Below are positions 1 to 11,599 of a DNA stretch of 64,000 bases, piece after piece. Below the pieces are notes generated by a model, which saw only the letters and a list, made by a program, of their open reading frames with translations, ran no database searches and was not told where the DNA came from. Position 1 is the stretch's first letter. Every line of letters starts with the position of its first letter. A program made the translations under genes and the position numbers. The DNA comes from an uncultured Gammaproteobacteria bacterium (GTDB lineage: Bacteria; Pseudomonadota; Gammaproteobacteria; CAWJPQ01): positions 136,512-200,511 of the forward strand of contig CAWJPQ010000006.1 of NCBI GenBank assembly GCA_963844825.1, read 5' to 3'.

Positions 1-182
1 GTTACGAACCGCGCATTCGCAGCGTAAAGGTGCAGACTCAGTCAGTGTTTGATCCGGAAGATCCCAGCATCCGGTTCCGGGTGGAAGCCACCCTGTGCGC
101 CCTTTCGGCAGACGAAGTGATCGTATTCGATTCGGCACTCAACCCCGTGACCCGTTCTGTCACGGTTGCGGAGACTGCGTAA
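1..182 (+). CDS. tssE: T6SS baseplate protein TssE (gp25-like), C-terminal fragment; 5' end lies outside the window
   Basis: Frame 3 reads YEPRIRSVKVQTQSVFDPEDPSIRFRVEATLCALSADEVIVFDSALNPVTRSVTVAETA*. It has a gp25/GPW-like 'EPRI' motif. The stop TAA is directly followed by the tssF ATG. Confidence 0.75.
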   Translation, partial: YEPRIRSVKVQTQSVFDPEDPSIRFRVEATLCALSADEVIVFDSALNPVTRSVTVAETA

Positions 183-2006
183 ATGAGTGATGAGTTACTC
201 CAGCATTATGAAAAGGAACTGGCCTTTCTGCAGAAGGCCATGTCGGAATTCGCCCAGCGCCACCCCAAGATCGGCAACCGCCTGCGCCTGGCCAACGAGC
301 GTCCGGAAGACCCCTTTGTGGAGCGGCTGCTGGACGGCGTGGCTCTGCTCAATGCCCGCATCCAGGACAAACTGAACGACGATTTTCCCGAACTCACCGA
401 CGGTCTGCTGGGCACCCTGTATCCTCACTACCAGCGCCCGATTCCATCCATGAGCATTGTCCAGTTCCAGGCGGCGGATGCGCTGGACGCCTGCGTTGAA
501 GTGCCTGCCGGTACGGAACTGGATACAGAAACCTTCGGCGGTGAAAGCTGCCGCTTCACCACCCGCTATTCCGTGGACATTCAGCCCATCAAAGTGGAAT
601 CCGCCCAGCTGATGGCGCGCCCGTTTGCAGCACCCGGCGCTAATGTGGTGAGCGGTGCCGACGCGGTGCTGCACATTCAGTTAAAGACCCTGTCGCCGGC
701 CCTGTCGCTGAGCGAATTGAAACCGGGGAAAATCCGGTTTTACCTGCGCGGACAACCCAAACATATCTATCCGCTCTATGAACACCTCCTCAACGGCGCC
801 GTCAAACTGGTACTGGCAAAAAATGAATCCGACCCGGCGCCGGTCTATGCAACCAGCAACAGTATCCGCGCCGTGGGTTTCGACATCGAGGAAGGCCTGC
901 TGCCTTATCCGGCCAACGCCTTTGTGGGTTATCGACTGCTAACGGAATATTTCGTCTTCCCGCAGAAGTTCCTGTTTGTGGACATTGACCTCTCCGCCCT
1001 GCCCGCCGGCACCAGCAGTGAACTTAATCTGTACATTTATATGAAACAGTCCGATGGCGAACTAGAACATTATATAAACGCCAGCACCTTCGCCTTGGGC
1101 TGCACGCCGGCGGTGAACCTGTTCCCCTATGTAGCCGATCCCATCACCTTACCGCATACCCAGTACGAATACCGCATCATTCCCGACGGCCGTCGCACCG
1201 GCGCCCTGGAAATCTATTCGGTGGATGCGGTGAATGCATCTAATTCCATGGGGCAGAAATTCGAATACACCCCCTTCTACGGAATCCAACATCGCCATAC
1301 CACCAAAAACCATGGCACCTACTGGTTCGAACGGCGGTTATCCGTGATCGAAGGGGAAAATAAGAACGAAAGGGCATCGGAAATCAATCTCAGCCTGGTA
1401 GACCTGGATTTCGACCCCAACCTGCCCAATGACGAAACTCTGGATATCCGCCTGACCTGTTTCAACCGCAATCTGCCGGGCAAGCTGCCCTCCGGCACCC
1501 AGCAGCCGAAACTGAACATGGTGGAAGGGGATGCGCCGGTGGCCTCTATCCACTGCATCAGCCAGCCCACCAGCACCCTGCGGCCGCCGCTGCGCAACCG
1601 GGCCCACTGGCGTTTGATGTCCCATCTGAATCTCAATCATCTGTCCCTCACGGCCGATGAAAACGGCGAGGCATTGAAGGAAATCCTGCGGCTGTATGAT
1701 TTCCGCGATTCCGATACCACCCGCAAGATGATCGAATCCATCGCCAAAGTAAGAACCCGCCCGATCATGGCCCCCATCACCGCGGGCAGGGGCACCGCCA
1801 TGTGCCGGGGCACCCAGGTGGAAATGGAATTCGATCCGCGCCTCATCGCCGGCGGCTCGGCCTATTTGTTTGCCAGTGTGCTGGAGCGGTTTCTGGCCCT
1901 ATACTGCTCACTGAACTCATTCACCCGTCTGATTGCTCGACTCAGCAACTTTGAGGAGGATATGAAGCGATGGCCTCCGCGCGCCGGCGAAAAAACACTG
2001 CTGTAA
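183..2006 (+). CDS. tssF: T6SS baseplate subunit TssF (ImpG/VasA family)
   Basis: 607-aa ORF. The N-terminus LLQHYEKELAFLQKAMSEFAQRHPKIGNRLRL is the typical TssF start. Length and tssE-tssF-tssG order fit. Confidence 0.95.
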   Translation: MSDELLQHYEKELAFLQKAMSEFAQRHPKIGNRLRLANERPEDPFVERLLDGVALLNARIQDKLNDDFPELTDGLLGTLYPHYQRPIPSMSIVQFQAADALDACVEVPAGTELDTETFGGESCRFTTRYSVDIQPIKVESAQLMARPFAAPGANVVSGADAVLHIQLKTLSPALSLSELKPGKIRFYLRGQPKHIYPLYEHLLNGAVKLVLAKNESDPAPVYATSNSIRAVGFDIEEGLLPYPANAFVGYRLLTEYFVFPQKFLFVDIDLSALPAGTSSELNLYIYMKQSDGELEHYINASTFALGCTPAVNLFPYVADPITLPHTQYEYRIIPDGRRTGALEIYSVDAVNASNSMGQKFEYTPFYGIQHRHTTKNHGTYWFERRLSVIEGENKNERASEINLSLVDLDFDPNLPNDETLDIRLTCFNRNLPGKLPSGTQQPKLNMVEGDAPVASIHCISQPTSTLRPPLRNRAHWRLMSHLNLNHLSLTADENGEALKEILRLYDFRDSDTTRKMIESIAKVRTRPIMAPITAGRGTAMCRGTQVEMEFDPRLIAGGSAYLFASVLERFLALYCSLNSFTRLIARLSNFEEDMKRWPPRAGEKTLL

Positions 2007-3109
2007 CCGACCAGCTGCAGGCGGAGCCCCAACGCTTCGCCTTCTTTCAGGCGGTGCGTCTGCTCGAGCGGGCGGCCCGGCTGCGGGCGCAGAAAACTGA
2101 ATCCTTTGCCCACGTGCCGGTAGCCCTAGGTGCCCCGCCCAACCGGGAAGGCATTCATTTCCGCGGCCAGGCCAGCCTGACCTTTCGCGGCTCCGACATC
2201 GACCGGGTGGAAATCACCAAAACCACCAACCAGGAAGACGACGACGCCCCGCAAAAACAATGGGAGATGCTGGTCAATATTTTCAGCCTGTTCGGCAGCA
2301 CCGGCATTCTCCCCTACCACACCAGCGAACTGGTGATCAAACGCCTGCGCCAGAAAGACCGTTCCCTGGTGGATTTTCTCGATGTGCTGAATCACCGCAG
2401 CACCTCGCTCTATTACCAGGCCTGGCACAAATACCGGCTGCCGGTGGTGTATGAACGGTCGCGTTGCGAAAACCGACGCGGACCGGACCTGTTCAGCCAG
2501 ATTCTTGCATCCCTGATCGGCCTGGGCAGCGGCGGCTTGGAACAGCGCCTGCCGCTGCCGGATGAAGCCCTGATGGGTTTCAGCGCCCACATGTCCCGCG
2601 GCACGCCGTCCGCCCCCACCCTGGCGCGCATTCTGCAACATTATTTTGAACTGCCCATTACCGTAGAACAGTTCATCGGCACCCGCCAGGTACTGCCCAC
2701 CGACATGCAAAGCCGGATACCGGCCTTGGGTCGCCTCAACGGCCAGAACAACGAACTGGGCATGAATGTGATTCTGGGGCGGAGCTGCTGGGATATCCAA
2801 AGCAAATTCCGCATCCATATCGAGCACCTCAGCTACCGGCAATTTGTCAGAATTGCGCCTCGCAGCCAGAAGATGGCGGCGCTGAAGGCCTTCGTCCGTT
2901 TTCTGGTGGGAACGGATTTCGATTTCGACATCGAGATCAATATCGACCAGAACGAGATCCCGAAAATCGGTCTGGGTCATAGCGTCGACGTCGATGGCAA
3001 ACCGGTGGAAGGAGGGGAACTGATGCTGGGCTGGAATTGCGGACTTCACCAGCCACCGGGCCGCCGGGACAATAAACCACGCATGATTCGCGTACTGGTC
3101 AGTGAATAA
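1970..3109 (+). CDS. tssG: T6SS baseplate subunit TssG (ImpH/VasB family)
   Basis: 379-aa ORF with the TssG N-terminal signature EPQRFAFFQAVRLLER. It overlaps the tssF stop by 37 nt. Confidence 0.9.
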   Translation: MASARRRKNTAVTDQLQAEPQRFAFFQAVRLLERAARLRAQKTESFAHVPVALGAPPNREGIHFRGQASLTFRGSDIDRVEITKTTNQEDDDAPQKQWEMLVNIFSLFGSTGILPYHTSELVIKRLRQKDRSLVDFLDVLNHRSTSLYYQAWHKYRLPVVYERSRCENRRGPDLFSQILASLIGLGSGGLEQRLPLPDEALMGFSAHMSRGTPSAPTLARILQHYFELPITVEQFIGTRQVLPTDMQSRIPALGRLNGQNNELGMNVILGRSCWDIQSKFRIHIEHLSYRQFVRIAPRSQKMAALKAFVRFLVGTDFDFDIEINIDQNEIPKIGLGHSVDVDGKPVEGGELMLGWNCGLHQPPGRRDNKPRMIRVLVSE

Positions 3110-3155
3110 CAACAAACCATAGCCTTATGAAAGGCGAAATACAGGGAATCTAGGC

Positions 3156-5822
3156 ATGATAAACGTAAACTTGAAATCCTTGGTCGATAAAATGTCCCCG
3201 CCGATGCGGGAATCGCTGGAAGGCGCAGCCGGACTCTGTATCGCGCGCACCCAATACAACGTGGAAGTGGAGCACTGGCTGCTGAAACTGCTGGAGGATG
3301 TCGATAATGACTTCAATGCCCTGCTGGAAAAGCACGGCCTGGACATCAGCAAGGTCGCCAAACAGCTCACCAACACGATGGAGAAATTCAAGAGCGGCAG
3401 TTCCCGGCAGGCGGCACTGTCCCCCGCCATCGTCGACGCCAGCAAGAATGCCTGGATGCTGAGTTCGGTGGATTTCGGCCACGGCATGATTACCAGCGGC
3501 CATTTGCTGGCAGCCCTGATGCTGGATGAACAATCCCGCCGCGCCCTGCTGGAATCCGCGCCAGAATTCAAAAATATCGCGCCGGAGTCCCTGCGGGAAA
3601 CCGCCCGCGCCGTTATCGGCACCACCGCTGAATCCTCCTCAGGCGCCCCTGCCGGCGGTAATGGCTCTCCCGGTGAAGCGGCCGCGGTACGCCCCAGCAA
3701 AACCCCGGCCCTGGACAAATACACCGTCAACCTCACCGAACGGGCCAAACAGGGCAAGATTGATCCGGTACTGGGCCGCGATGAGGAGATTCGCCAGTGT
3801 ATCGATATTCTCACCCGACGCCGTCAGAACAATCCCATCCTCACCGGCGAAGCCGGCGTGGGCAAAACAGCGGTAGTGGAAGGCTTCGCCCTGCGCATCG
3901 CCAACGACGACGTACCCGATCCCCTGAAAGGCGTTGCCGTCCACACCCTGGACCTGGGTCTGCTACAGGCCGGCGCCAGCGTCAAAGGGGAATTTGAAAA
4001 CCGCCTCAAGTCGGTGATCGAGGAAGTGAAAGGCTCCGTCCAGCCCATCATCATGTTTATCGACGAAGCCCACACCCTGATCGGCGCTGGCGGCAAGGAA
4101 GGCCAGGGTGACGCCGCCAACCTCCTGAAACCGGCTTTGGCCCGGGGCGAAATGCGTACCATCGCCGCCACCACCTGGGCCGAATACAAAAAATATTTTG
4201 AGCGCGACCCCGCCCTCACCCGCCGCTTCCAGGTAGTTAAAGTGGAAGAGCCGGACGAAGAAAAGGCCATCAATATGATGCGCGGCATCGCTAAATCCCT
4301 GCAGGATCACCACAAGGTACGCATCCTGGATGAAGCGATCGAAGCGGCGGTAAAACTGTCCCACCGTTATATTCCCGGCCGCCAGCTGCCGGACAAATCC
4401 GTGAGCCTGATCGACACCGCATGCGCCCGCATCGGCCTCAGCCTGACCGCAACGCCGGCGGCAATCGAGGATTGTCAGCGCCGCATCCAGCAATGCGGCG
4501 CCACCATCGAACTGCTGGAAACGGAAAACGTCACCAACAACGCACACGACGAGCGCCTCGCGGTTCTGCGTGCCGACAAGGCGGCTGCCGAAAAACAACT
4601 GGAAGAACTGCAAACCCAGTGGCAGCGCGAACAGGAACTCATCACCGAAATCCGCGCCATCCGCACCCAGCTTGAAGCAGATTTCCTGAAAGGAAAAGAA
4701 GACACCGCAGCCGCGCTCGACGACACTCGGCGCCGCGAACTGAAAGACAAGCTGCAGGCGCTGACCGAACAGCTGCAGGCCGCGCAGGGCGAAACGCCGC
4801 TGATGCAGGCGAACGTCGACGCCCAGGCGGTGGCAGCCGTCGTCGCCAACTGGACAGGCATTCCCGTGGGCAAGATGGTCAGCGACCTGATAGAAACCGT
4901 GCGCACGCTGGGCGAGCGCCTGAGCGGGCGCGTGATCGGCCAGTCCCACGCCCTTGAGGCCATCGCCCAGGCGATCCGCACCTCGCGCGCCGGCCTCACC
5001 GATCCGCGCAAACCGATCGGCGTGTTCCTCATGGTGGGCACCAGCGGCGTCGGCAAGACCGAAACCGCGCTGGCGCTCGCCGACATGCTCTACGGCGGCG
5101 AGCACAACATCACCGTAATCAACATGTCGGAGTTCAAGGAAGAGCACAAAGTATCGATGCTGCTCGGCTCGCCTCCCGGCTACGTCGGCTACGGCGAAGG
5201 CGGCGTGCTCACCGAGGCGGCGCGGCGCAAGCCCTACTCCATCATCCTGCTCGACGAGATGGAAAAGGCCCACCCCGGGGTACAGGATATTTTCTACAAC
5301 CTGTTCGACAAGGGTACGATCAAGGACGGCGAGGGCCGCGACATCGACTTCAAGAATACCGTCATCATCATGACCTCGAACGCCGGCGAGGACGCCATTC
5401 GCGCCATCTGCAACCAGCTCGAGGAGCGTCCCGAACCCGATGTGCTGCTAGACAACATCCGTCCGCACCTGCTGAAGCATTTCAAACCGGCATTCCTCGG
5501 CCGCACCAATCTCATCGCCTACTATCCGCTCGACGACGATAACCTCATGAAGATCTGCGCCATCAACATGCGCCGCATTGAAAAGCGGGTGCGTGCACAT
5601 TACGGCGCCGAATTCAGCTACGACGAAGAGGTGCTGCTGCACATCGTCGCTCGCTGTCAGGAAGCGGACACGGGCGCTCGCAACATCGAGAACATCCTGA
5701 ACCGCTCGCTGCTGCCCGAGCTGGCTGGCGAATGCCTCGATCGCATGGCGCGGCAGGAAAAGATCAATCGCATCAATATCGGCGCCACCGAGGACGGCGC
5801 GTTCACTTATCAGTTGAGCTGA
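3156..5822 (+). CDS. clpV: T6SS AAA+ ATPase ClpV (TssH)
   Basis: 888-aa ORF with a Clp-N-like N-domain and two Walker A boxes (GEAGVGKT, GTSGVGKT). It has a ClpB-like middle coiled coil and sits after tssG. Confidence 0.93.
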   Translation: MINVNLKSLVDKMSPPMRESLEGAAGLCIARTQYNVEVEHWLLKLLEDVDNDFNALLEKHGLDISKVAKQLTNTMEKFKSGSSRQAALSPAIVDASKNAWMLSSVDFGHGMITSGHLLAALMLDEQSRRALLESAPEFKNIAPESLRETARAVIGTTAESSSGAPAGGNGSPGEAAAVRPSKTPALDKYTVNLTERAKQGKIDPVLGRDEEIRQCIDILTRRRQNNPILTGEAGVGKTAVVEGFALRIANDDVPDPLKGVAVHTLDLGLLQAGASVKGEFENRLKSVIEEVKGSVQPIIMFIDEAHTLIGAGGKEGQGDAANLLKPALARGEMRTIAATTWAEYKKYFERDPALTRRFQVVKVEEPDEEKAINMMRGIAKSLQDHHKVRILDEAIEAAVKLSHRYIPGRQLPDKSVSLIDTACARIGLSLTATPAAIEDCQRRIQQCGATIELLETENVTNNAHDERLAVLRADKAAAEKQLEELQTQWQREQELITEIRAIRTQLEADFLKGKEDTAAALDDTRRRELKDKLQALTEQLQAAQGETPLMQANVDAQAVAAVVANWTGIPVGKMVSDLIETVRTLGERLSGRVIGQSHALEAIAQAIRTSRAGLTDPRKPIGVFLMVGTSGVGKTETALALADMLYGGEHNITVINMSEFKEEHKVSMLLGSPPGYVGYGEGGVLTEAARRKPYSIILLDEMEKAHPGVQDIFYNLFDKGTIKDGEGRDIDFKNTVIIMTSNAGEDAIRAICNQLEERPEPDVLLDNIRPHLLKHFKPAFLGRTNLIAYYPLDDDNLMKICAINMRRIEKRVRAHYGAEFSYDEEVLLHIVARCQEADTGARNIENILNRSLLPELAGECLDRMARQEKINRINIGATEDGAFTYQLS

Positions 5823-5868
5823 GGGCGTCGCCGGGCTACGGCACGGAACAAGCTGGAGATCAAACCGC

Positions 5869-7209
5869 ATGAGCAGAGCCACCATCAGCACCGGCGCCAT
5901 CAGCTGGAGGCGTGACGAGACCGATACCGGAAATTCCAGCGGCCCCTACCATATGCTACTGCTCGGCGACTTCAGCGCTGCGGCCAGCCGCACCGTCAAA
6001 CCGACGCCGCGGCTGCATCGAGTGGATCGCGATACGCTCGACAACGTGTTCTGCAAACTCGATGTGCGCCTGAAGCTGCCGTTCTCCGATGAGCCGCTGC
6101 ATTTCACCGAGCTCGACGAATTGCATCCGGATTTTCTGTACGAGCAGGTGGAGCTGTTTTCAGAAATGCGGGATCTGCAGCGGCGCCTGGGTAATCCCAA
6201 GACCTTTGCGACGACCGCGGCAGAACTCACCGCCGACGAAGCACCCGTCGCACCTTCGCTGGATGAATTGCTGGCGGCGGCGCCCGACGCCGACGCGGCT
6301 TCAACCCTCGACATCCCCAAACTTATTCACGATATCGTCGCGCCCTACGTGGTGCCGGCGCCGACACCGCAACAGGCCGCGCTACAGGCCTCCGTGCAAC
6401 AGGCCTCGGAGGAACTGATGCGCAAGCTGCTCCACCAGAGTGCCTTCCGCGCACTGGAGGCGAGCTGGCGCGGCCTCGACCTATTGTTGAGACGCCTCGA
6501 CGGTGACCGTGAACCGCGCCTGTTCCTGGTCGACAGCCCCGCCGCTCAATTGCGGCAACTGCTGGCCGAAGGCGGGGCGCTCGAGGAATTGCTGCAACGG
6601 GCCGGATTGGGCGATACCGCGCCGTTGCTCATGGTTGCGGACTATCGCTTCGGCGACAGCGTTACCGATCTCGAGGACGCCGCCGCGCTGGCGGAATTCG
6701 CCCGGCGCCGCAATTGTATCGCCGTCGCCGGCGGCAGCGAACGATTGGCGGGCTGCAGCGATCTGCACGCCGATCCCGATGACTGGCAGACACCCAGCGA
6801 CGGGGCGCCGACTGAAGCTTGGGAAATTTTTCGGGGCACACAGGGCGCGCAGCATCTGGCGCTGATCGCGCCGCGTTTTCTGCTGCGCCCGCCCTACGGA
6901 CGGCGCACCGCGACGACTGATCTCGATTTCGAAGAGTGGATGGCGGACAATCCCCGCGCGCTGCTCTGGGGCAACGGCGCCTGGCTGGCGGCCCTGGCGC
7001 AATGCAACGGCGACGATTCCATCGCCTCGCTGCCGCTGCCGCCGCTACCCGCGGGTGACGAACCGCGAGCATTGTGCAGCGCCGAGACACTGCTCAACGA
7101 CCGCGCCGCTTCGCGCCTGAAAACTGCCGGACTGATGCCGCTGCGCGCCGAGCGCGACAGCGACCGCGTGTATTTTACGGATTGGGTGAGTTGCTACCAG
7201 GAGCCCTGA
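5869..7209 (+). CDS. T6SS-linked sheath-like protein: TssB-like N-terminal region fused to a TssC-like core that lacks the TssC C-terminal region
   Basis: 446-aa ORF with a GGAGA SD upstream.
- Residues ~25-120: LLLGDFS...VDRDTLDNVF...FTELDELHPDFLYEQV...MRDLQRRL, resembling the TssB/VipA core.
- Residues ~175-446: LLHQSAFRALEASWRGLDLLL, LALIAPRFLLRPPYG, LLWGNGAW, ETLLNDRAASRLKTAGLMPL...SCYQEP, following the order of TssC/VipB motifs.
Motif comparison is from memory of VipA/VipB; no search was run. Confidence 0.55.
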   Translation: MSRATISTGAISWRRDETDTGNSSGPYHMLLLGDFSAAASRTVKPTPRLHRVDRDTLDNVFCKLDVRLKLPFSDEPLHFTELDELHPDFLYEQVELFSEMRDLQRRLGNPKTFATTAAELTADEAPVAPSLDELLAAAPDADAASTLDIPKLIHDIVAPYVVPAPTPQQAALQASVQQASEELMRKLLHQSAFRALEASWRGLDLLLRRLDGDREPRLFLVDSPAAQLRQLLAEGGALEELLQRAGLGDTAPLLMVADYRFGDSVTDLEDAAALAEFARRRNCIAVAGGSERLAGCSDLHADPDDWQTPSDGAPTEAWEIFRGTQGAQHLALIAPRFLLRPPYGRRTATTDLDFEEWMADNPRALLWGNGAWLAALAQCNGDDSIASLPLPPLPAGDEPRALCSAETLLNDRAASRLKTAGLMPLRAERDSDRVYFTDWVSCYQEP

Positions 7210-7334
7210 TGCACGGCCTCAATGATGGCAGCAAGCCTGCTCTCAAGGGCTGCCGTGCCGCTCGGATGAGCAACTTCTCTGCGGCAAGATACGGTTAGCC
7301 ATGGTTCATAACCGTTTGTATTATTAGTGAAATA

Positions 7335-7413
<79 letters not shown>

Positions 7414-8185: not shown

Positions 8186-10564
8186 TTATTCTCTCAATGT
8201 GGCACCATGATCCGTGTGCAGCCTGCTCAGAACAGCCTCTACCACCTGCTCCACTTCCATGTCCGTAAGGGTGCGCGAAAAATCCTGCAAGGTCAAGCCC
8301 AAAGCAATACTTTTTCGACCTAATTCAAGATGTTCGCCTTGATAGACATCGAACAACTGGAGGTTCTGGAGCAACCCGCCGGCCGCCGCGCGGACCGACT
8401 CGCACAGGGCCTGGGCCGGGACGGCATCGTCCACCACCACGGCGATATCCCGGCGCACCGACGGGTACTTGGACAGCTCCTCGAAGGCCGGGCGCCCGGG
8501 CGCCCCCAGGCCGTCCAGGGACAGCTCGAACAACAGGGGCCGCGGGCCCGGCAGGTCCAGCCGGCGCTGGACGACCGGGTGCAGGGCGCCCAGCCAACCC
8601 AGCCGGCGCCGCGACTGGCGATGATACAGGGCGGCGGACTGCCCCGGGTGCAGGGCCGGGTGAGGCTGCGCCTCCACCGTGAACAGCCCGGCCCCGCCCC
8701 ACAGGGCCAGGATCGCCTCCACGTCCCCTTTCAGGTCATAGAAGTCGGCATCCCGCCGCGGCCCGGCCCACTGCTCCGGATCCACGGGCCCGTAGGCCAC
8801 GCCGGCCACCATGATCTCCTCGACCACCTGCCCGCCCTGCAGCTCGTAGCGCGGGGCGATCTCGAACAGGCGCACCCGCGGCTGCTGGCGCTTGGCGTTG
8901 TACAGCAGGGCCTGGACGAGGCCCGGCCACAGGTTGCTGCGCATCTGGGCCAGGTCCTCGCTGAGGGGGTTTTTCAGCCGCGGGCTGTCGACCCCGGGGT
9001 TGAGCAGCGCCTGCAGGGCCGGGTCCACGAAGCTGTAGTTGATGACCTCCTGGTAGTCCCGGTCCGCCAGGAGCAGGCGCACGCGCTCGTTGAGCTGGGC
9101 GGGCCGGTGGGTCTTGATGACCGTGCGCTGGCGCGGGTGGGACCGGGGCAGACGGTCGTAACCGTACAGGCGGGCGATCTCCTCCACCAGGTCGGCCTCG
9201 ATGGCGATGTCGAAACGGTGCGCCGGCGGAGTCACAAGCCACCCGTCACCCTCGCGTGCGGTGGTCATGCCGAGCAGCGTCAGGTACTGGGTCACCTGGT
9301 CCTCGGGGACCTCGGCGCCCAGGGCGCGGGCAAGATAACTGTCCCGCAGGCGGATGGCGGCCGGCTGGGGCAGGTGGGCCCCGGCGGCGGCCTCGGTCAC
9401 CGGCCCCGGCGTGCCGCCGACGATCTCCAGCAGCAGGGCCGTGGCCCGCTCCATGGCCCGGGCGGGCAGCTGGGGATCGACGCCGCGCTCGAAGCGATAG
9501 GACGAATCGGACTGCAGGCCGTAGCGGCGCCCCTGCCCGGCGATGGCCGCGGGGCTGAAAAAGGCGCTCTCCAGGAACAGGGACGCGGTCGACCCGTCCA
9601 CGGCCGAGTCCTGCCCACCCATGATGCCCGCCACGGCCACCACCCGACGGTGATCGGCGATCACCAGGGTGCCCTCCTCGAGGGTCAGATCTTGTCCATT
9701 CAACAGGGTCACCCGCTCGCCGGGCTCGGCGTAGCGCACGCGGATGCCGCCGTCGAGCTTGGCCAGATCGAAGGCGTGCATGGGCTGGCCGAGCTCGAGC
9801 ATCACGTAGTTGGTGACATCGACCACCGCCGAGACGCTGCGGATGCCGCTGCGCCGCAGCCGCTCGCGCAGCCACCACGGGGTCCGCGCCCGGGGGTCGA
9901 TGCCCGTGATCACCCGGCCCACGTAGCGCGGACAGGCCTCGGGCGCGTCGATATCCACGGCCAGGGTGCCCTCCCCCGCCGCGGCCACCGCGGTCACCGC
10001 GTGGGGGGTCAGGGGCACGGCATTGACCGCCGCCACCTCCCGGGCGATGCCGGCGATGGACAGGCAGTCTCCCCGGTTGGGGGTGATGCCGATCTCGATG
10101 ACCGTGTCATCCAGCTGCAGCAGCTCGCGCAGATCGGTGCCGGGCCGGCTGTCTTCGGGAAGCACCAGCAGGGTATTCTCCTCCTCCGCCAGGCCCAGGT
10201 CCTCGCCGGCGCACAGGCGCCCCTGGGAGGTCACGCCCTTCAGTGTCGCGCTCTCGACCTTGCCCGTGGGAAGACTGGCCCCGGCGGGCGCCACCGCGGT
10301 GCACAGCCCCGCGCTCACGGGGGCGTCGGTGACGATGGCCAGGGGCTCGCCGGCCCCGATGTCCACCGTGCACGCCTTGAGGCGATCACTGTTCTCGATA
10401 TCCTTCACCTCGATCACCCGGCCCACGACCACACCCGCGAAGGGCGGGGCCGCCGCCGTCACCGCCTCCACTTCCAGGCCCGCCATGGTCAGCTGATCGG
10501 CCAGGACGGCGGTGGATACCGGCGGGTTCACCCAGGTGCGCAGCCATTGCTCGCTGAATTTCAT
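8186..10564 (-). CDS. pheT: Phenylalanine--tRNA ligase beta subunit
   Basis: 792 aa, starting MKFSEQWLRTWVNP. B3/4, B5 and anticodon-binding regions are recognisable. It sits downstream of pheS. Confidence 0.97.
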   Translation of the reverse strand: MKFSEQWLRTWVNPPVSTAVLADQLTMAGLEVEAVTAAAPPFAGVVVGRVIEVKDIENSDRLKACTVDIGAGEPLAIVTDAPVSAGLCTAVAPAGASLPTGKVESATLKGVTSQGRLCAGEDLGLAEEENTLLVLPEDSRPGTDLRELLQLDDTVIEIGITPNRGDCLSIAGIAREVAAVNAVPLTPHAVTAVAAAGEGTLAVDIDAPEACPRYVGRVITGIDPRARTPWWLRERLRRSGIRSVSAVVDVTNYVMLELGQPMHAFDLAKLDGGIRVRYAEPGERVTLLNGQDLTLEEGTLVIADHRRVVAVAGIMGGQDSAVDGSTASLFLESAFFSPAAIAGQGRRYGLQSDSSYRFERGVDPQLPARAMERATALLLEIVGGTPGPVTEAAAGAHLPQPAAIRLRDSYLARALGAEVPEDQVTQYLTLLGMTTAREGDGWLVTPPAHRFDIAIEADLVEEIARLYGYDRLPRSHPRQRTVIKTHRPAQLNERVRLLLADRDYQEVINYSFVDPALQALLNPGVDSPRLKNPLSEDLAQMRSNLWPGLVQALLYNAKRQQPRVRLFEIAPRYELQGGQVVEEIMVAGVAYGPVDPEQWAGPRRDADFYDLKGDVEAILALWGGAGLFTVEAQPHPALHPGQSAALYHRQSRRRLGWLGALHPVVQRRLDLPGPRPLLFELSLDGLGAPGRPAFEELSKYPSVRRDIAVVVDDAVPAQALCESVRAAAGGLLQNLQLFDVYQGEHLELGRKSIALGLTLQDFSRTLTDMEVEQVVEAVLSRLHTDHGATLRE

Positions 10565-10567
10565 GGC

Positions 10568-11599
<1,032 letters not shown>

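What the first reader, a model, noticed from the sequence alone, without database searches (positions are those of the whole stretch)
5869..7209. 446-aa ORF combining TssB-like and TssC-like sheath motifs in one truncated polypeptide
The last gene of the T6SS operon is not one of the 13 core components as such.
- Residues ~25-120 follow the TssB/VipA core pattern: hhhhGDFxx ... VDRDxFDxV ... L.F..LD(D/E)F.PD.h..QV ... LR..L. Here that is LLLGDFS, VDRDTLDNVF, FTELDELHPDFLYEQV, MRDLQRRL.
- After an Ala/Pro-rich linker, the rest follows the order of TssC/VipB landmarks: LLHQSAFRALEASWRGLDLLL (VipB: ILHNSQFQAMESAWRGLKLFV), LALIAPRFLLRPPYG (LGLTAPRFLLRVPYD), LLWGNGAW (YLWGNTAF), and ETLLNDRAASRLKTAGLMPL...VSCYQEP (EVLITDRKEFELAEEGFIAL...SIQKP).
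- The ORF stops exactly where VipB continues for more than 100 further residues.

So it would lack both the TssC N-terminal ClpV-binding helix and the C-terminal part that helps interlock sheath subunits. A fused, C-terminally truncated sheath protomer could act as a sheath cap, terminator, nucleator or regulator rather than a polymerising subunit. I do not recognise it as a named Tag/Tss family.
Basis: partly seen in the sequence, partly recalled or inferred. Interest (0 to 1): 0.7.

Follow-up and report, generated by a model that had tools for sequence, protein, structure and literature searches.

The report
Single-chain sheath-like T6SS accessory protein
The last gene of this type VI secretion operon encodes a fusion of the two sheath proteins (TssB and TssC) that lacks the inner domain linking sheath subunits together. 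It belongs to a large, widespread family that nobody seems to have studied, and it may cap or regulate the sheath.

Summary
ORF 5869-7209 (446 aa) follows tssE'-tssF-tssG-clpV and has its own ribosome-binding site.

- **Architecture.** Profile comparison aligns residues 10-138 to TssB 18-152 of 172 (99%, E 8.5e-18). Residues 124-445 align to TssC 15-374 of 496 (E 1.4e-75). The last ~120 TssC residues are missing. These form PF18945, sheath domain 1, which holds the handshake acceptor strands and the C-terminal donor strand.
- **Structure.** AlphaFold gives a confident fold (pLDDT 88.9) whose best PDB matches are VipB/TssC chains.
- **Family.** The stop is a family trait, not an artefact. More than 150 clusters at 50% identity share the same length and end point, across several phyla. 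They usually sit in T6SS loci that also carry normal tssB and tssC.
The TssC N-terminal ClpV-binding helix is not lost. A matching motif (SLDELLA, residues 130-136) sits in the linker and co-varies by clade with the cognate TssC helix.
- **Literature.** No named Tag/Tss family or paper in the held library describes this protein.
- **Best mechanism (inferred, about 0.35).** It is a sheath protomer that cannot polymerise. It docks by its TssB-type N-terminal arm, most likely capping the distal sheath end, and ClpV removes it.

Novelty: new variant of a known kind. Interest 0.6.

The parts
3..179 (+). 3' end of tssE (baseplate sheath initiator), cut by the window edge
   Evidence: tblastn with TssE of L065: 76% identity over 58 aa, E 6.7e-24
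183..2006 (+). tssF
   Evidence: Pfam T6SS_TssF 721 bits, full length
1970..3109 (+). tssG
   Evidence: Pfam T6SS_TssG 293 bits
3156..5822 (+). clpV (tssH), the AAA+ ATPase that disassembles the sheath
   Evidence: Pfam Clp_N, AAA, AAA_lid_9, AAA_2 and ClpB_D2-small. Same position as clpV in L065 and eight other gammaproteobacterial loci
5855..5858 (+). Shine-Dalgarno-like GGAG, 10 nt upstream of the ATG
   Evidence: Read directly from the sequence
5869..7209 (+). 446-aa fused sheath-like protein: TssB-like module, linker, then TssC-like module without sheath domain 1
5869..5940 (+). N-terminal arm (aa 1-24): conserved tip MSRATISTGxI followed by a variable tether. Positional equivalent of the TssB N-terminal donor strand
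   Evidence: pLDDT below 50 for residues 1-24. Tip conserved, tether variable. The tip lies about 30 aa upstream of GDFSG; the TssB strand 'RVHITYDVE' lies about 27 aa upstream. hhalign starts at residue 10, aligned to TssB 18
5944..6231 (+). TssB-like module (aa 26-121): two beta strands and the long helices
   Evidence: Pfam PF05591 over residues 26-109. hhalign to TssB at 99% probability. Model strands 28-33 and 49-52, helices 95-108 and 110-121
6232..6312 (+). Ala/Pro-rich linker (aa 122-148) joining the TssB-like and TssC-like modules
   Evidence: Variable in length and sequence across the family. pLDDT 69-75
6256..6276 (+). SLDELLA motif (aa 130-136), counterpart of the TssC N-terminal ClpV-binding helix
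   Evidence: Helix 131-136 in the model. Conservation L131 86%, D132 73%, L135 82%. Co-varies with the cognate TssC N-terminal motif by clade. Compare the EAEC TssC2 peptide ATDDCLEEIINNTRA (PMC5048182)
6313..7206 (+). TssC-like module (aa 149-446), equivalent to TssC residues ~40-374. It ends where sheath domain 1 would begin
   Evidence: Pfam VipB 87.8 bits. hhalign E 1.4e-75. Foldseek: VipB/TssC chains, about 304 aligned columns, E ~1e-13
7336..7412 (-). tRNA-Pro(GGG) flanking the T6SS cluster; probable island border
   Evidence: ARAGORN and Rfam. Identity with L001 stops at 7382, inside the tRNA 3' half

Best explanation
**What it is (confidence about 0.9)**
- A T6SS accessory protein derived from the sheath.
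- One chain carries a TssB-like module and a TssC-like module. Together they rebuild sheath domains 2 (middle layer) and 3 (outer helical layer).
- It lacks domain 1, the inner layer. In TssC, domain 1 holds the two acceptor strands and the C-terminal donor strand of the inter-subunit 'handshake'.

**How it most likely works (inferred, about 0.35)**
- It keeps a TssB-type N-terminal arm, so it can plug into the open acceptor sheet of a normal TssB/TssC protomer.
- It offers no acceptor sheet and no C-terminal arm of its own, so nothing can be built on top of it.
- Donor arms in the sheath point towards the baseplate, so open acceptor sites are found on the distal-most ring.
- The protein would therefore bind the growing distal end as a cap or terminator, or as a brake on unproductive polymerisation.
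- It also keeps a ClpV-recognition-type helix matched to that of the cognate TssC. After firing, ClpV would strip it off and recycle it along with the sheath.

**Shown versus inferred**
- Shown: domain content, family-wide conservation, linkage to T6SS loci, motif co-variation.
- Inferred: docking by the arm, position at the distal end, ClpV binding.
For: - **Domain content.** hhalign matches TssB 18-152 and TssC 15-374. PF18945 is absent from all 120 listed relatives but present in the neighbouring canonical TssC genes.
- **Fold.** AF2 model with pLDDT 88.9 and pTM 0.89 and a disordered N-terminal 24 residues. The best structural matches are VipB/TssC chains.
- **What the missing part does.** In TssB1C1, domain 1 is TssC strands beta11-12 plus donor strands TssC beta13 and TssB beta1. 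Domain 2 is two TssB strands plus five TssC strands. Domain 3 is the outer helices (PMC5807055).
- **Direction of the arms.** Each sheath subunit sends its linkers to the ring nearer the baseplate, TssE is proposed to accept those of the first ring, and the composition of the distal end is unclear (PMC5813253).
- **N-terminal arm.** Conserved tip and variable tether, at TssB-like spacing.
- **ClpV-type helix.** Conserved, and co-varies with the cognate TssC helix in gamma-, alpha- and deltaproteobacterial and acidobacterial loci.
- **Genomic context.** The gene lies in T6SS loci that also have normal tssB and tssC, most often directly after clpV.
- **Selection.** It is a distinct clade with 10 invariant residues over 120 sequences.
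Against: - There is no experimental or complex-prediction evidence for any interaction.
- Only one of the two donor arms is present, and its sequence is only loosely TssB-like.
- TssA, the accepted distal-end factor, coexists with it, so a second cap is not obviously needed.
- Some copies are orphans far from any T6SS gene.
- The motif co-variation rests on only about 4 independent clades.
- Without domain 1 the protein cannot contact the Hcp tube as sheath subunits do, so a lattice position is not guaranteed.
Confidence: 0.35

Rival explanations
1. ClpV-directed regulator or adaptor. The soluble sheath mimic displays a permanently exposed ClpV-binding helix. It either recruits or primes ClpV at the apparatus, or competes with the sheath for ClpV and so tunes disassembly. 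It is never part of the sheath lattice.
For: - clpV is the commonest immediate upstream neighbour: 12 loci plus the window.
- The helix motif lies in a flexible, variable linker and co-varies with the TssC helix.
- Orphan copies suggest it can act in trans.
Against: - This does not explain why complete domains 2 and 3 and a conserved N-terminal arm are kept; a peptide or a small domain would be enough.
- In Acidobacteriota the gene sits before tssB, not next to clpV.
- Single TssC helices bind ClpV-N weakly, Kd about 26-39 uM (PMC5048182), so a monomer would compete poorly.
Confidence: 0.2
2. Baseplate-proximal element. The N-terminal arm inserts into the sheath-like acceptor sheet of TssE, or of the first sheath ring. 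The protein then acts as a placeholder, collar or initiator adaptor that controls when sheath polymerisation starts or when contraction is triggered.
For: - TssE is proposed to accept sheath linkers (PMC5813253).
- The gene is co-operonic with tssE-tssF-tssG.
- From general knowledge, not tested here: extracellular contractile injection systems use specialised sheath paralogues next to the baseplate.
Against: - The baseplate-proximal sheath paralogues I know of keep the handshake domain; this protein lacks it.
- Nothing in the data favours TssE over TssC as the acceptor.
Confidence: 0.15
3. Assembly chaperone for free TssB/TssC. It occupies the acceptor sheet or lateral surfaces of unpolymerised protomers and so prevents tube-independent formation of contracted tubules in the cytoplasm.
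For: - Same structural logic as the cap model: donor arm present, no acceptor.
- TssB/TssC purified from E. coli form tubules (PMC5807055), so cells may need to suppress this.
Against: - ClpV is already credited with this role (title of Kapitein 2013, cited in PMC7896307).
- Most T6SSs manage without this gene.
- It would have to be made in amounts comparable to the sheath proteins, which is unknown.
Confidence: 0.15
4. A decaying or functionless remnant of a sheath gene duplication or fusion.
For: - The window's subclade is a reduced form. It lacks a ~12-residue insertion and the C-terminal 'LxGxW' tail present in most relatives.
Against: - The ORF is intact and has a ribosome-binding site.
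- The predicted fold is confident.
- 10 residues are invariant and about 34 nearly invariant over 120 sequences from several phyla.
- More than 150 full-length clusters at 50% identity exist.
Confidence: 0.03

Closest known systems
Canonical T6SS sheath heterodimer TssB/TssC (VipA/VipB, HsiB1/C1; PDB 3J9G, 5N8N, 5URW)
   Same: - Homologous over TssB 18-152 and TssC 15-374.
- Same fold for the TssC part: Foldseek E ~1e-13 over about 304 columns.
- Keeps the GDFSG, LEASWRGL, PRFLLRLPYG and LWGN landmarks, an N-terminal arm and an N-terminal-helix-type motif.
   Different: - One chain instead of two.
- No domain 1 (PF18945), so no acceptor strands, no C-terminal donor strand and no tube-facing layer.
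- Scores far below the NCBIfam equivalog cut-offs: 67.5 against 271.5 for TssC, 18.2 against 97.25 for TssB.
- Forms a separate clade.
- Coexists with normal tssB/tssC.
Second full-length TssC paralogue of group 5 T6SS (A. tumefaciens TssC40/ImpD, Atu4340)
   Same: - An extra sheath-family gene in a T6SS operon whose role is unexplained.
- TssC40 is needed for Hcp secretion and is not redundant with TssC41 (PMC3702570; PMC5813230).
- Gammaproteobacterial relatives of this locus carry such a paralogue as well: TssC_b, 42-47% identical to the second tssC of Rhizobium and Azospirillum plasmids.
   Different: - The TssC40-type proteins are not fused to TssB. The gammaproteobacterial TssC_b keeps the C-terminal domain PF18945; I did not check this for TssC40 or the Rhizobium copy.
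- The Rhizobium etli group 5 cluster has no member of the fused family.
TssA / TagA / TagB / TagJ ('firing coordinators' acting on the sheath ends)
   Same: They are accessory factors that bind sheath components and act at the sheath ends or recruit ClpV (PMC13584744). This is the kind of job proposed here.
   Different: - No sequence or fold relationship.
- TssA (ImpA_N) and TagJ (ImpE) are encoded alongside the fused gene in the same loci, so it does not replace them.
Tail or sheath terminator caps of phages and extracellular contractile injection systems (T4 gp15, Afp16/Pvc16). Comparison from general knowledge, not tested here
   Same: Functional analogy only: proteins that finish the distal end of a contractile sheath so that it cannot grow further.
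   Different: Unrelated folds. The protein here is itself a sheath paralogue. T6SS has no recognised terminator homologue.

Membership tests
TssC / VipB, sheath large subunit (TIGR03355; PF05943 + PF18945) | N-terminal sheath domain PF05943 present | tested here: met
   87.8 bits against a gathering score of 27, residues 176-375
TssC / VipB, sheath large subunit (TIGR03355; PF05943 + PF18945) | C-terminal domain PF18945 (sheath domain 1 with the handshake strands) present | tested here: not met
   No Pfam hit. The ORF ends at the equivalent of TssC residue 374 of 496. No relative has PF18945
TssC / VipB, sheath large subunit (TIGR03355; PF05943 + PF18945) | Reaches the NCBIfam equivalog cut-off | tested here: not met
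   67.5 bits against a cut-off of 271.5
TssC / VipB, sheath large subunit (TIGR03355; PF05943 + PF18945) | N-terminal ClpV-binding helix | tested here: inconclusive
   A motif of the right kind and position is present and co-varies with the cognate TssC. Binding was not testable
TssB / VipA, sheath small subunit (TIGR03358; PF05591) | Reaches the Pfam or NCBIfam cut-off | tested here: not met
   PF05591 19.9 bits against 24. TIGR03358 18.2 bits against 97.25
TssB / VipA, sheath small subunit (TIGR03358; PF05591) | Homology to TssB over most of its length | tested here: met
   hhalign 99% probability, E 8.5e-18, TssB 18-152 of 172. Most relatives have a PF05591 hit
TssB / VipA, sheath small subunit (TIGR03358; PF05591) | Separate ~170-aa polypeptide that pairs with TssC | tested here: not met
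   Fused in one 446-aa chain
Polymerising contractile sheath subunit (functional class) | Both donor arms (N- and C-terminal) and the acceptor beta-sheet | tested here: not met
   Only an N-terminal arm is present. The acceptor sheet and C-terminal arm lie in the missing domain 1
Named T6SS accessory (Tag/Tsm/Tsa) families | Matches a described Tag family | tested here: not met
   None of the TAGs tabulated in the 2026 review is sheath-derived. Four text searches found no description
T6SS-associated gene (genomic definition) | Recurrently encoded in T6SS loci | tested here: met
   33 of 49 genome loci have a T6SS core gene within 10 kb. The position after clpV is conserved in gamma- and alphaproteobacterial loci

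The most novel reading that the evidence does not exclude
This family could be a dedicated T6SS sheath terminator or cap. Built from the sheath fold itself, it would set sheath length or stability at the distal end and would be recycled by ClpV through a TssC-type helix. No such terminator has been recognised for T6SS.
Probability: 0.3. Interest if true: 0.8.

Novelty: new variant of a known kind. Interest (0 to 1): 0.6.

Why it matters
- **Open questions it touches.** How T6SS sheath growth is ended and stabilised at the distal end is only partly understood. TssA and TagA are implicated, and the composition of the distal end was called unclear in PMC5813253. What extra sheath paralogues do is also unexplained (PMC5813230).
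- **A natural experiment.** This protein is a single-chain sheath protomer stripped of the handshake domain but keeping a donor arm and a ClpV-type helix. It separates docking from propagation.
- **Easy to test.** The family is large and spans several phyla, so a conserved role is likely. A knockout with sheath imaging would test it directly.
- **Annotation.** Pipelines currently label many members 'contractile sheath large subunit' or 'ImpC'. That is misleading and can inflate tssC counts in T6SS surveys.

Tried and rejected
- **Frameshift or assembly artefact joining tssB and tssC.** Rejected. The architecture and end point are shared by 120 aligned relatives and more than 150 clusters at 50% identity.
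- **Replacement for TssA.** This was suggested by its position before tssB in Acidobacteriota. Rejected, because TssA and TagJ are present in the same loci.
- **Identity with A. tumefaciens TssC40/ImpD.** Rejected. The TssC40-type gene corresponds to the full-length paralogue TssC_b, and the Rhizobium group 5 cluster lacks the fused gene.
- **Missing domain 1 supplied by the downstream 205-aa gene seen in some relatives.** Not pursued. That gene is absent from the window and has no Pfam hit.
- **First genome scan with the 28-sequence alignment.** Failed for lack of a conserved stretch; repeated successfully with 14 sequences.
- **tblastn of the protein against plasmids.** No match at 1e-5.
- **Organism identification by exact-sequence look-up.** No names returned.
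- **Literature searches for natural TssB-TssC fusions or TssC-like accessory proteins.** Nothing relevant found.
Full report
**1. The observation**

The ORF at 5869-7209 (+) is intact, 446 aa, and starts at ATG. A GGAG lies 10 nt upstream of the ATG, and the gap after the clpV stop is 46 nt.

Upstream on the same strand lie the 3' end of tssE (3-179), tssF, tssG and clpV. No other T6SS gene occurs in the 64-kb window. Downstream come a tRNA-Pro on the minus strand, a convergent MerR gene, then pheT and thrS.

**2. Both sheath signatures are real**

| Test | TssB-like part | TssC-like part |
|---|---|---|
| Pfam | PF05591, 19.9 bits (gathering 24), residues 26-109 | PF05943, 87.8 bits (gathering 27), residues 176-375 |
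| NCBIfam | TIGR03358, 18.2 bits (cut-off 97.25) | TIGR03355, 67.5 bits (cut-off 271.5) |
| hhalign, 120-sequence family profile against cognate-type alignments built from related loci | residues 10-138 to TssB 18-152 of 172, 99%, E 8.5e-18 | residues 124-445 to TssC 15-374 of 496, 100%, E 1.4e-75 |

- PDB chains of TssC/VipB match at E 4e-15 to 1.6e-10.
- The AlphaFold model is confident: pLDDT 88.9, pTM 0.89. Only residues 1-24 are disordered.
- Its best structural matches are VipB/TssC chains: 3J9G, 5URW and 5N8N, E ~1e-13, about 304 aligned columns.

**3. What is missing and what is kept**

In the P. aeruginosa TssB1C1 sheath (PMC5807055):
- Domain 1, the inner layer, is built from TssC strands beta11-12. 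These accept two donor strands, TssC beta13 and TssB beta1. This is the 'handshake'.
- Domain 2 is a seven-stranded sheet of two TssB strands and five TssC strands.
- Domain 3 is the outer helices.

The ORF ends at the equivalent of TssC residue 374, so the whole of domain 1 (Pfam PF18945) is absent. None of the 120 listed relatives has PF18945, whereas the canonical TssC genes beside a relative do. Domains 2 and 3 are complete within a single chain. The model has two TssB-type strands, the TssC-type strands and the helices.

Two further elements are retained.

- **An N-terminal arm.** It has a conserved tip (MSRATISTGxI) followed by a variable tether of about 12 residues. The tip lies about 30 residues upstream of the GDFSG motif. 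The TssB donor strand 'RVHITYDVE' lies about 27 residues upstream of the same motif.
- **A short helix motif in the linker.** It reads SLDELLA (residues 130-136), with L131 conserved in 86%, D132 in 73% and L135 in 82% of sequences. It lies about 60 residues upstream of the LEASWRGL anchor, as the ClpV-binding helix does in TssC. It also changes in step with the cognate TssC helix:

| Clade or locus | Cognate TssC helix | Fused-protein motif |
|---|---|---|
| Gammaproteobacteria | SLLE[LM]AI | [DV]LD[SMD]LL |
| Acidobacteriota L029 | LSLLDQIVERGR | GDLLDHIVQQSQ |
| Alphaproteobacteria L042 | GEFAALLEKEFRP | SDFQALLGDSP |
| Alphaproteobacteria L053 | MDFAPLLERS | SDFARLTGRA |

For comparison, the EAEC TssC2 helix is ATDDCLEEIINNTRA (PMC5048182).

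**4. It is a family, not an accident**

- A word-indexed search found 232 relatives. The best 120 are 443-572 aa long, nearly all carry PF05943, and most also carry PF05591.
- All aligned members end at the same point. Ten residues are invariant over 120 sequences.
- An exhaustive HMM search of 1.84 billion representatives gave 8,904 hits (3,459 at E ≤ 1e-30). The top 150 clusters at 50% identity all cover the full profile at E below 1e-150, with lengths of 467-634 aa, nearly all 477-551. Weaker hits will include ordinary TssC, so I do not give a family size.
- In a distance tree the fused proteins form their own clade, apart from both TssC paralogues.
- The window's protein belongs to a small, reduced subclade of 443-467 aa. 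It lacks a ~12-residue insertion and the C-terminal 'LxGxW' tail found in most members.

**5. Genomic context**

Members occur in:
- Gammaproteobacteria (Microbulbifer, Ketobacter, Hahella, Exilibacterium, Aliikangiella);
- Alphaproteobacteria (Salipiger, and alphaproteobacterial MAG loci L045 and L053);
- deltaproteobacterial/Myxococcota MAGs;
- Acidobacteriota, Planctomycetota, Verrucomicrobiota and Gemmatimonadota.

Of 49 genome loci, 33 have a T6SS core gene within 10 kb.

| Group | Gene order ('fused' = this gene) |
|---|---|
| Gammaproteobacteria (nine loci; same as the window) | tssA-tssB-tssC_a-tssC_b-tssE-tssF-tssG-clpV-fused |
| Acidobacteriota | fused-tssB-tssC-hcp-(tagJ-tssA)-tssE-F-G-clpV |
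| Alphaproteobacteria | clpV-fused-vgrG-DUF6931-PAAR-fha-tssK-L-M |
| Microbulbifer | fused-fha-tssJ-K-L-M-tagF |

- Normal tssB and tssC are present wherever the contig is long enough. TssA and TagJ coexist with the gene, so it does not replace a core part.
- Eight loci with at least 8 kb of flank on each side have no recognisable T6SS neighbour. In Hahella and Agarilytica MAGs the neighbours are housekeeping genes. Some copies are therefore orphans.

**6. Mechanism**

Shown:
- a single-chain sheath protomer with domains 2 and 3;
- an N-terminal arm and a TssC-type helix;
- no domain 1;
- conserved and linked to T6SS loci.

Established background: each sheath subunit sends its linkers to the ring nearer the baseplate, and TssE is proposed to accept those of the first ring. 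The distal-most ring therefore exposes open acceptor sites. The composition of the V. cholerae distal end was left unresolved (PMC5813253).

Inference: a protein with a donor arm but no acceptor sheet and no C-terminal arm can dock onto an open acceptor but cannot be extended. Its most natural place is the distal end, as a cap, a terminator or a brake on polymerisation. The retained, co-varying helix suggests that ClpV handles it as it handles sheath subunits.

I put this at about 0.35. The rivals are listed here.

| Rival | Confidence |
|---|---|
| Soluble ClpV adaptor or decoy | 0.2 |
| Baseplate-proximal placeholder acting on TssE | 0.15 |
| Chaperone preventing tube-independent polymerisation | 0.15 |
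| Decaying remnant (contradicted by the conservation) | 0.03 |

**7. Comparison with what is known**

- The protein belongs to the sheath superfamily, but it fails the defining features of both TssC and TssB. It has no PF18945, it scores below both equivalog cut-offs, and it is one fused chain.
- It is distinct from the second full-length TssC of group 5 systems (A. tumefaciens TssC40/ImpD). That protein is essential for Hcp secretion and still unexplained (PMC3702570; PMC5813230).
  - It corresponds instead to the TssC_b paralogue found in the gammaproteobacterial relatives.
- The August 2026 review of T6SS accessory genes lists no sheath-derived TAG. Four full-text searches found no description. 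The held library does not cover most subscription journals, so an overlooked report is possible.
- Public annotation recognises only the domains: 'contractile sheath domain-containing protein', or misleadingly 'large subunit' or 'ImpC'.

**8. Verdict**

- Novelty: new variant of a known kind.
- Interest: 0.6.

Noticed in passing
window 7336-7412 (-), with window 1-7400 and L001: A tRNA-Pro(GGG) gene lies 127 nt after the ORF. A second assembly carrying the identical protein (L001) is 99.5% identical to window 5348-7382, then diverges inside the 3' half of the tRNA into unrelated genes (MlaA). The T6SS part also has lower G+C (0.57-0.62) than the rest of the window (0.59-0.72, mostly about 0.65). 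Together these suggest that the T6SS cluster is a genomic island inserted at tRNA-Pro.
   Followed up: partly
L065 696-3785 and L003, L006, L007, L010, L012, L013, L048, L051: The gammaproteobacterial relatives of this locus carry two full-length TssC paralogues in tandem: TssC_a of ~496 aa and TssC_b of ~493 aa. Both have PF05943 and PF18945, and the fused gene is present as well. TssC_b is 42-47% identical to the second tssC of Rhizobium and Azospirillum group 5 clusters, the ImpD/TssC40 type whose role is unexplained. The window starts at tssE, so whether it has both paralogues cannot be seen.
   Followed up: partly
L009, L016, L014, L031, L035, L038, L040, L049 (around position 10000-11500 of each): These copies of the fused gene are orphans, with no recognisable T6SS gene within 8-10 kb. 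In L009 the neighbours are pyruvate formate-lyase and a PtsP-like enzyme. In L016 they are purK and a GNAT acetyltransferase. I did not check whether these genomes have a T6SS elsewhere.
   Followed up: partly
L065 11629-12246; also L003, L004, L013, L062: A ~205-aa gene with no Pfam hit recurs directly downstream of the fused gene in several relatives. Its N-terminus reads MPSKKMKTQNGNSCAAHC. It is absent from the window. It might be an effector or an immunity gene.
   Followed up: no
family alignment A1/A3, C-terminus: Most family members end with a conserved 'LxGxW' tail that has no counterpart in TssC. They also carry a ~12-residue 'GW' insertion. The window's subclade (443-467 aa) has lost both.
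   Followed up: no
L064 and L015 (Microbulbifer), 9177-9998 of L064: In Microbulbifer a 273-aa gene with a weak Y1 transposase-like Pfam hit sits immediately upstream of the fused gene, in the same orientation. A weak homologue (257 aa, minus strand) also turned up within the first 30 kb of the window in my phmmer screen.
   Followed up: no
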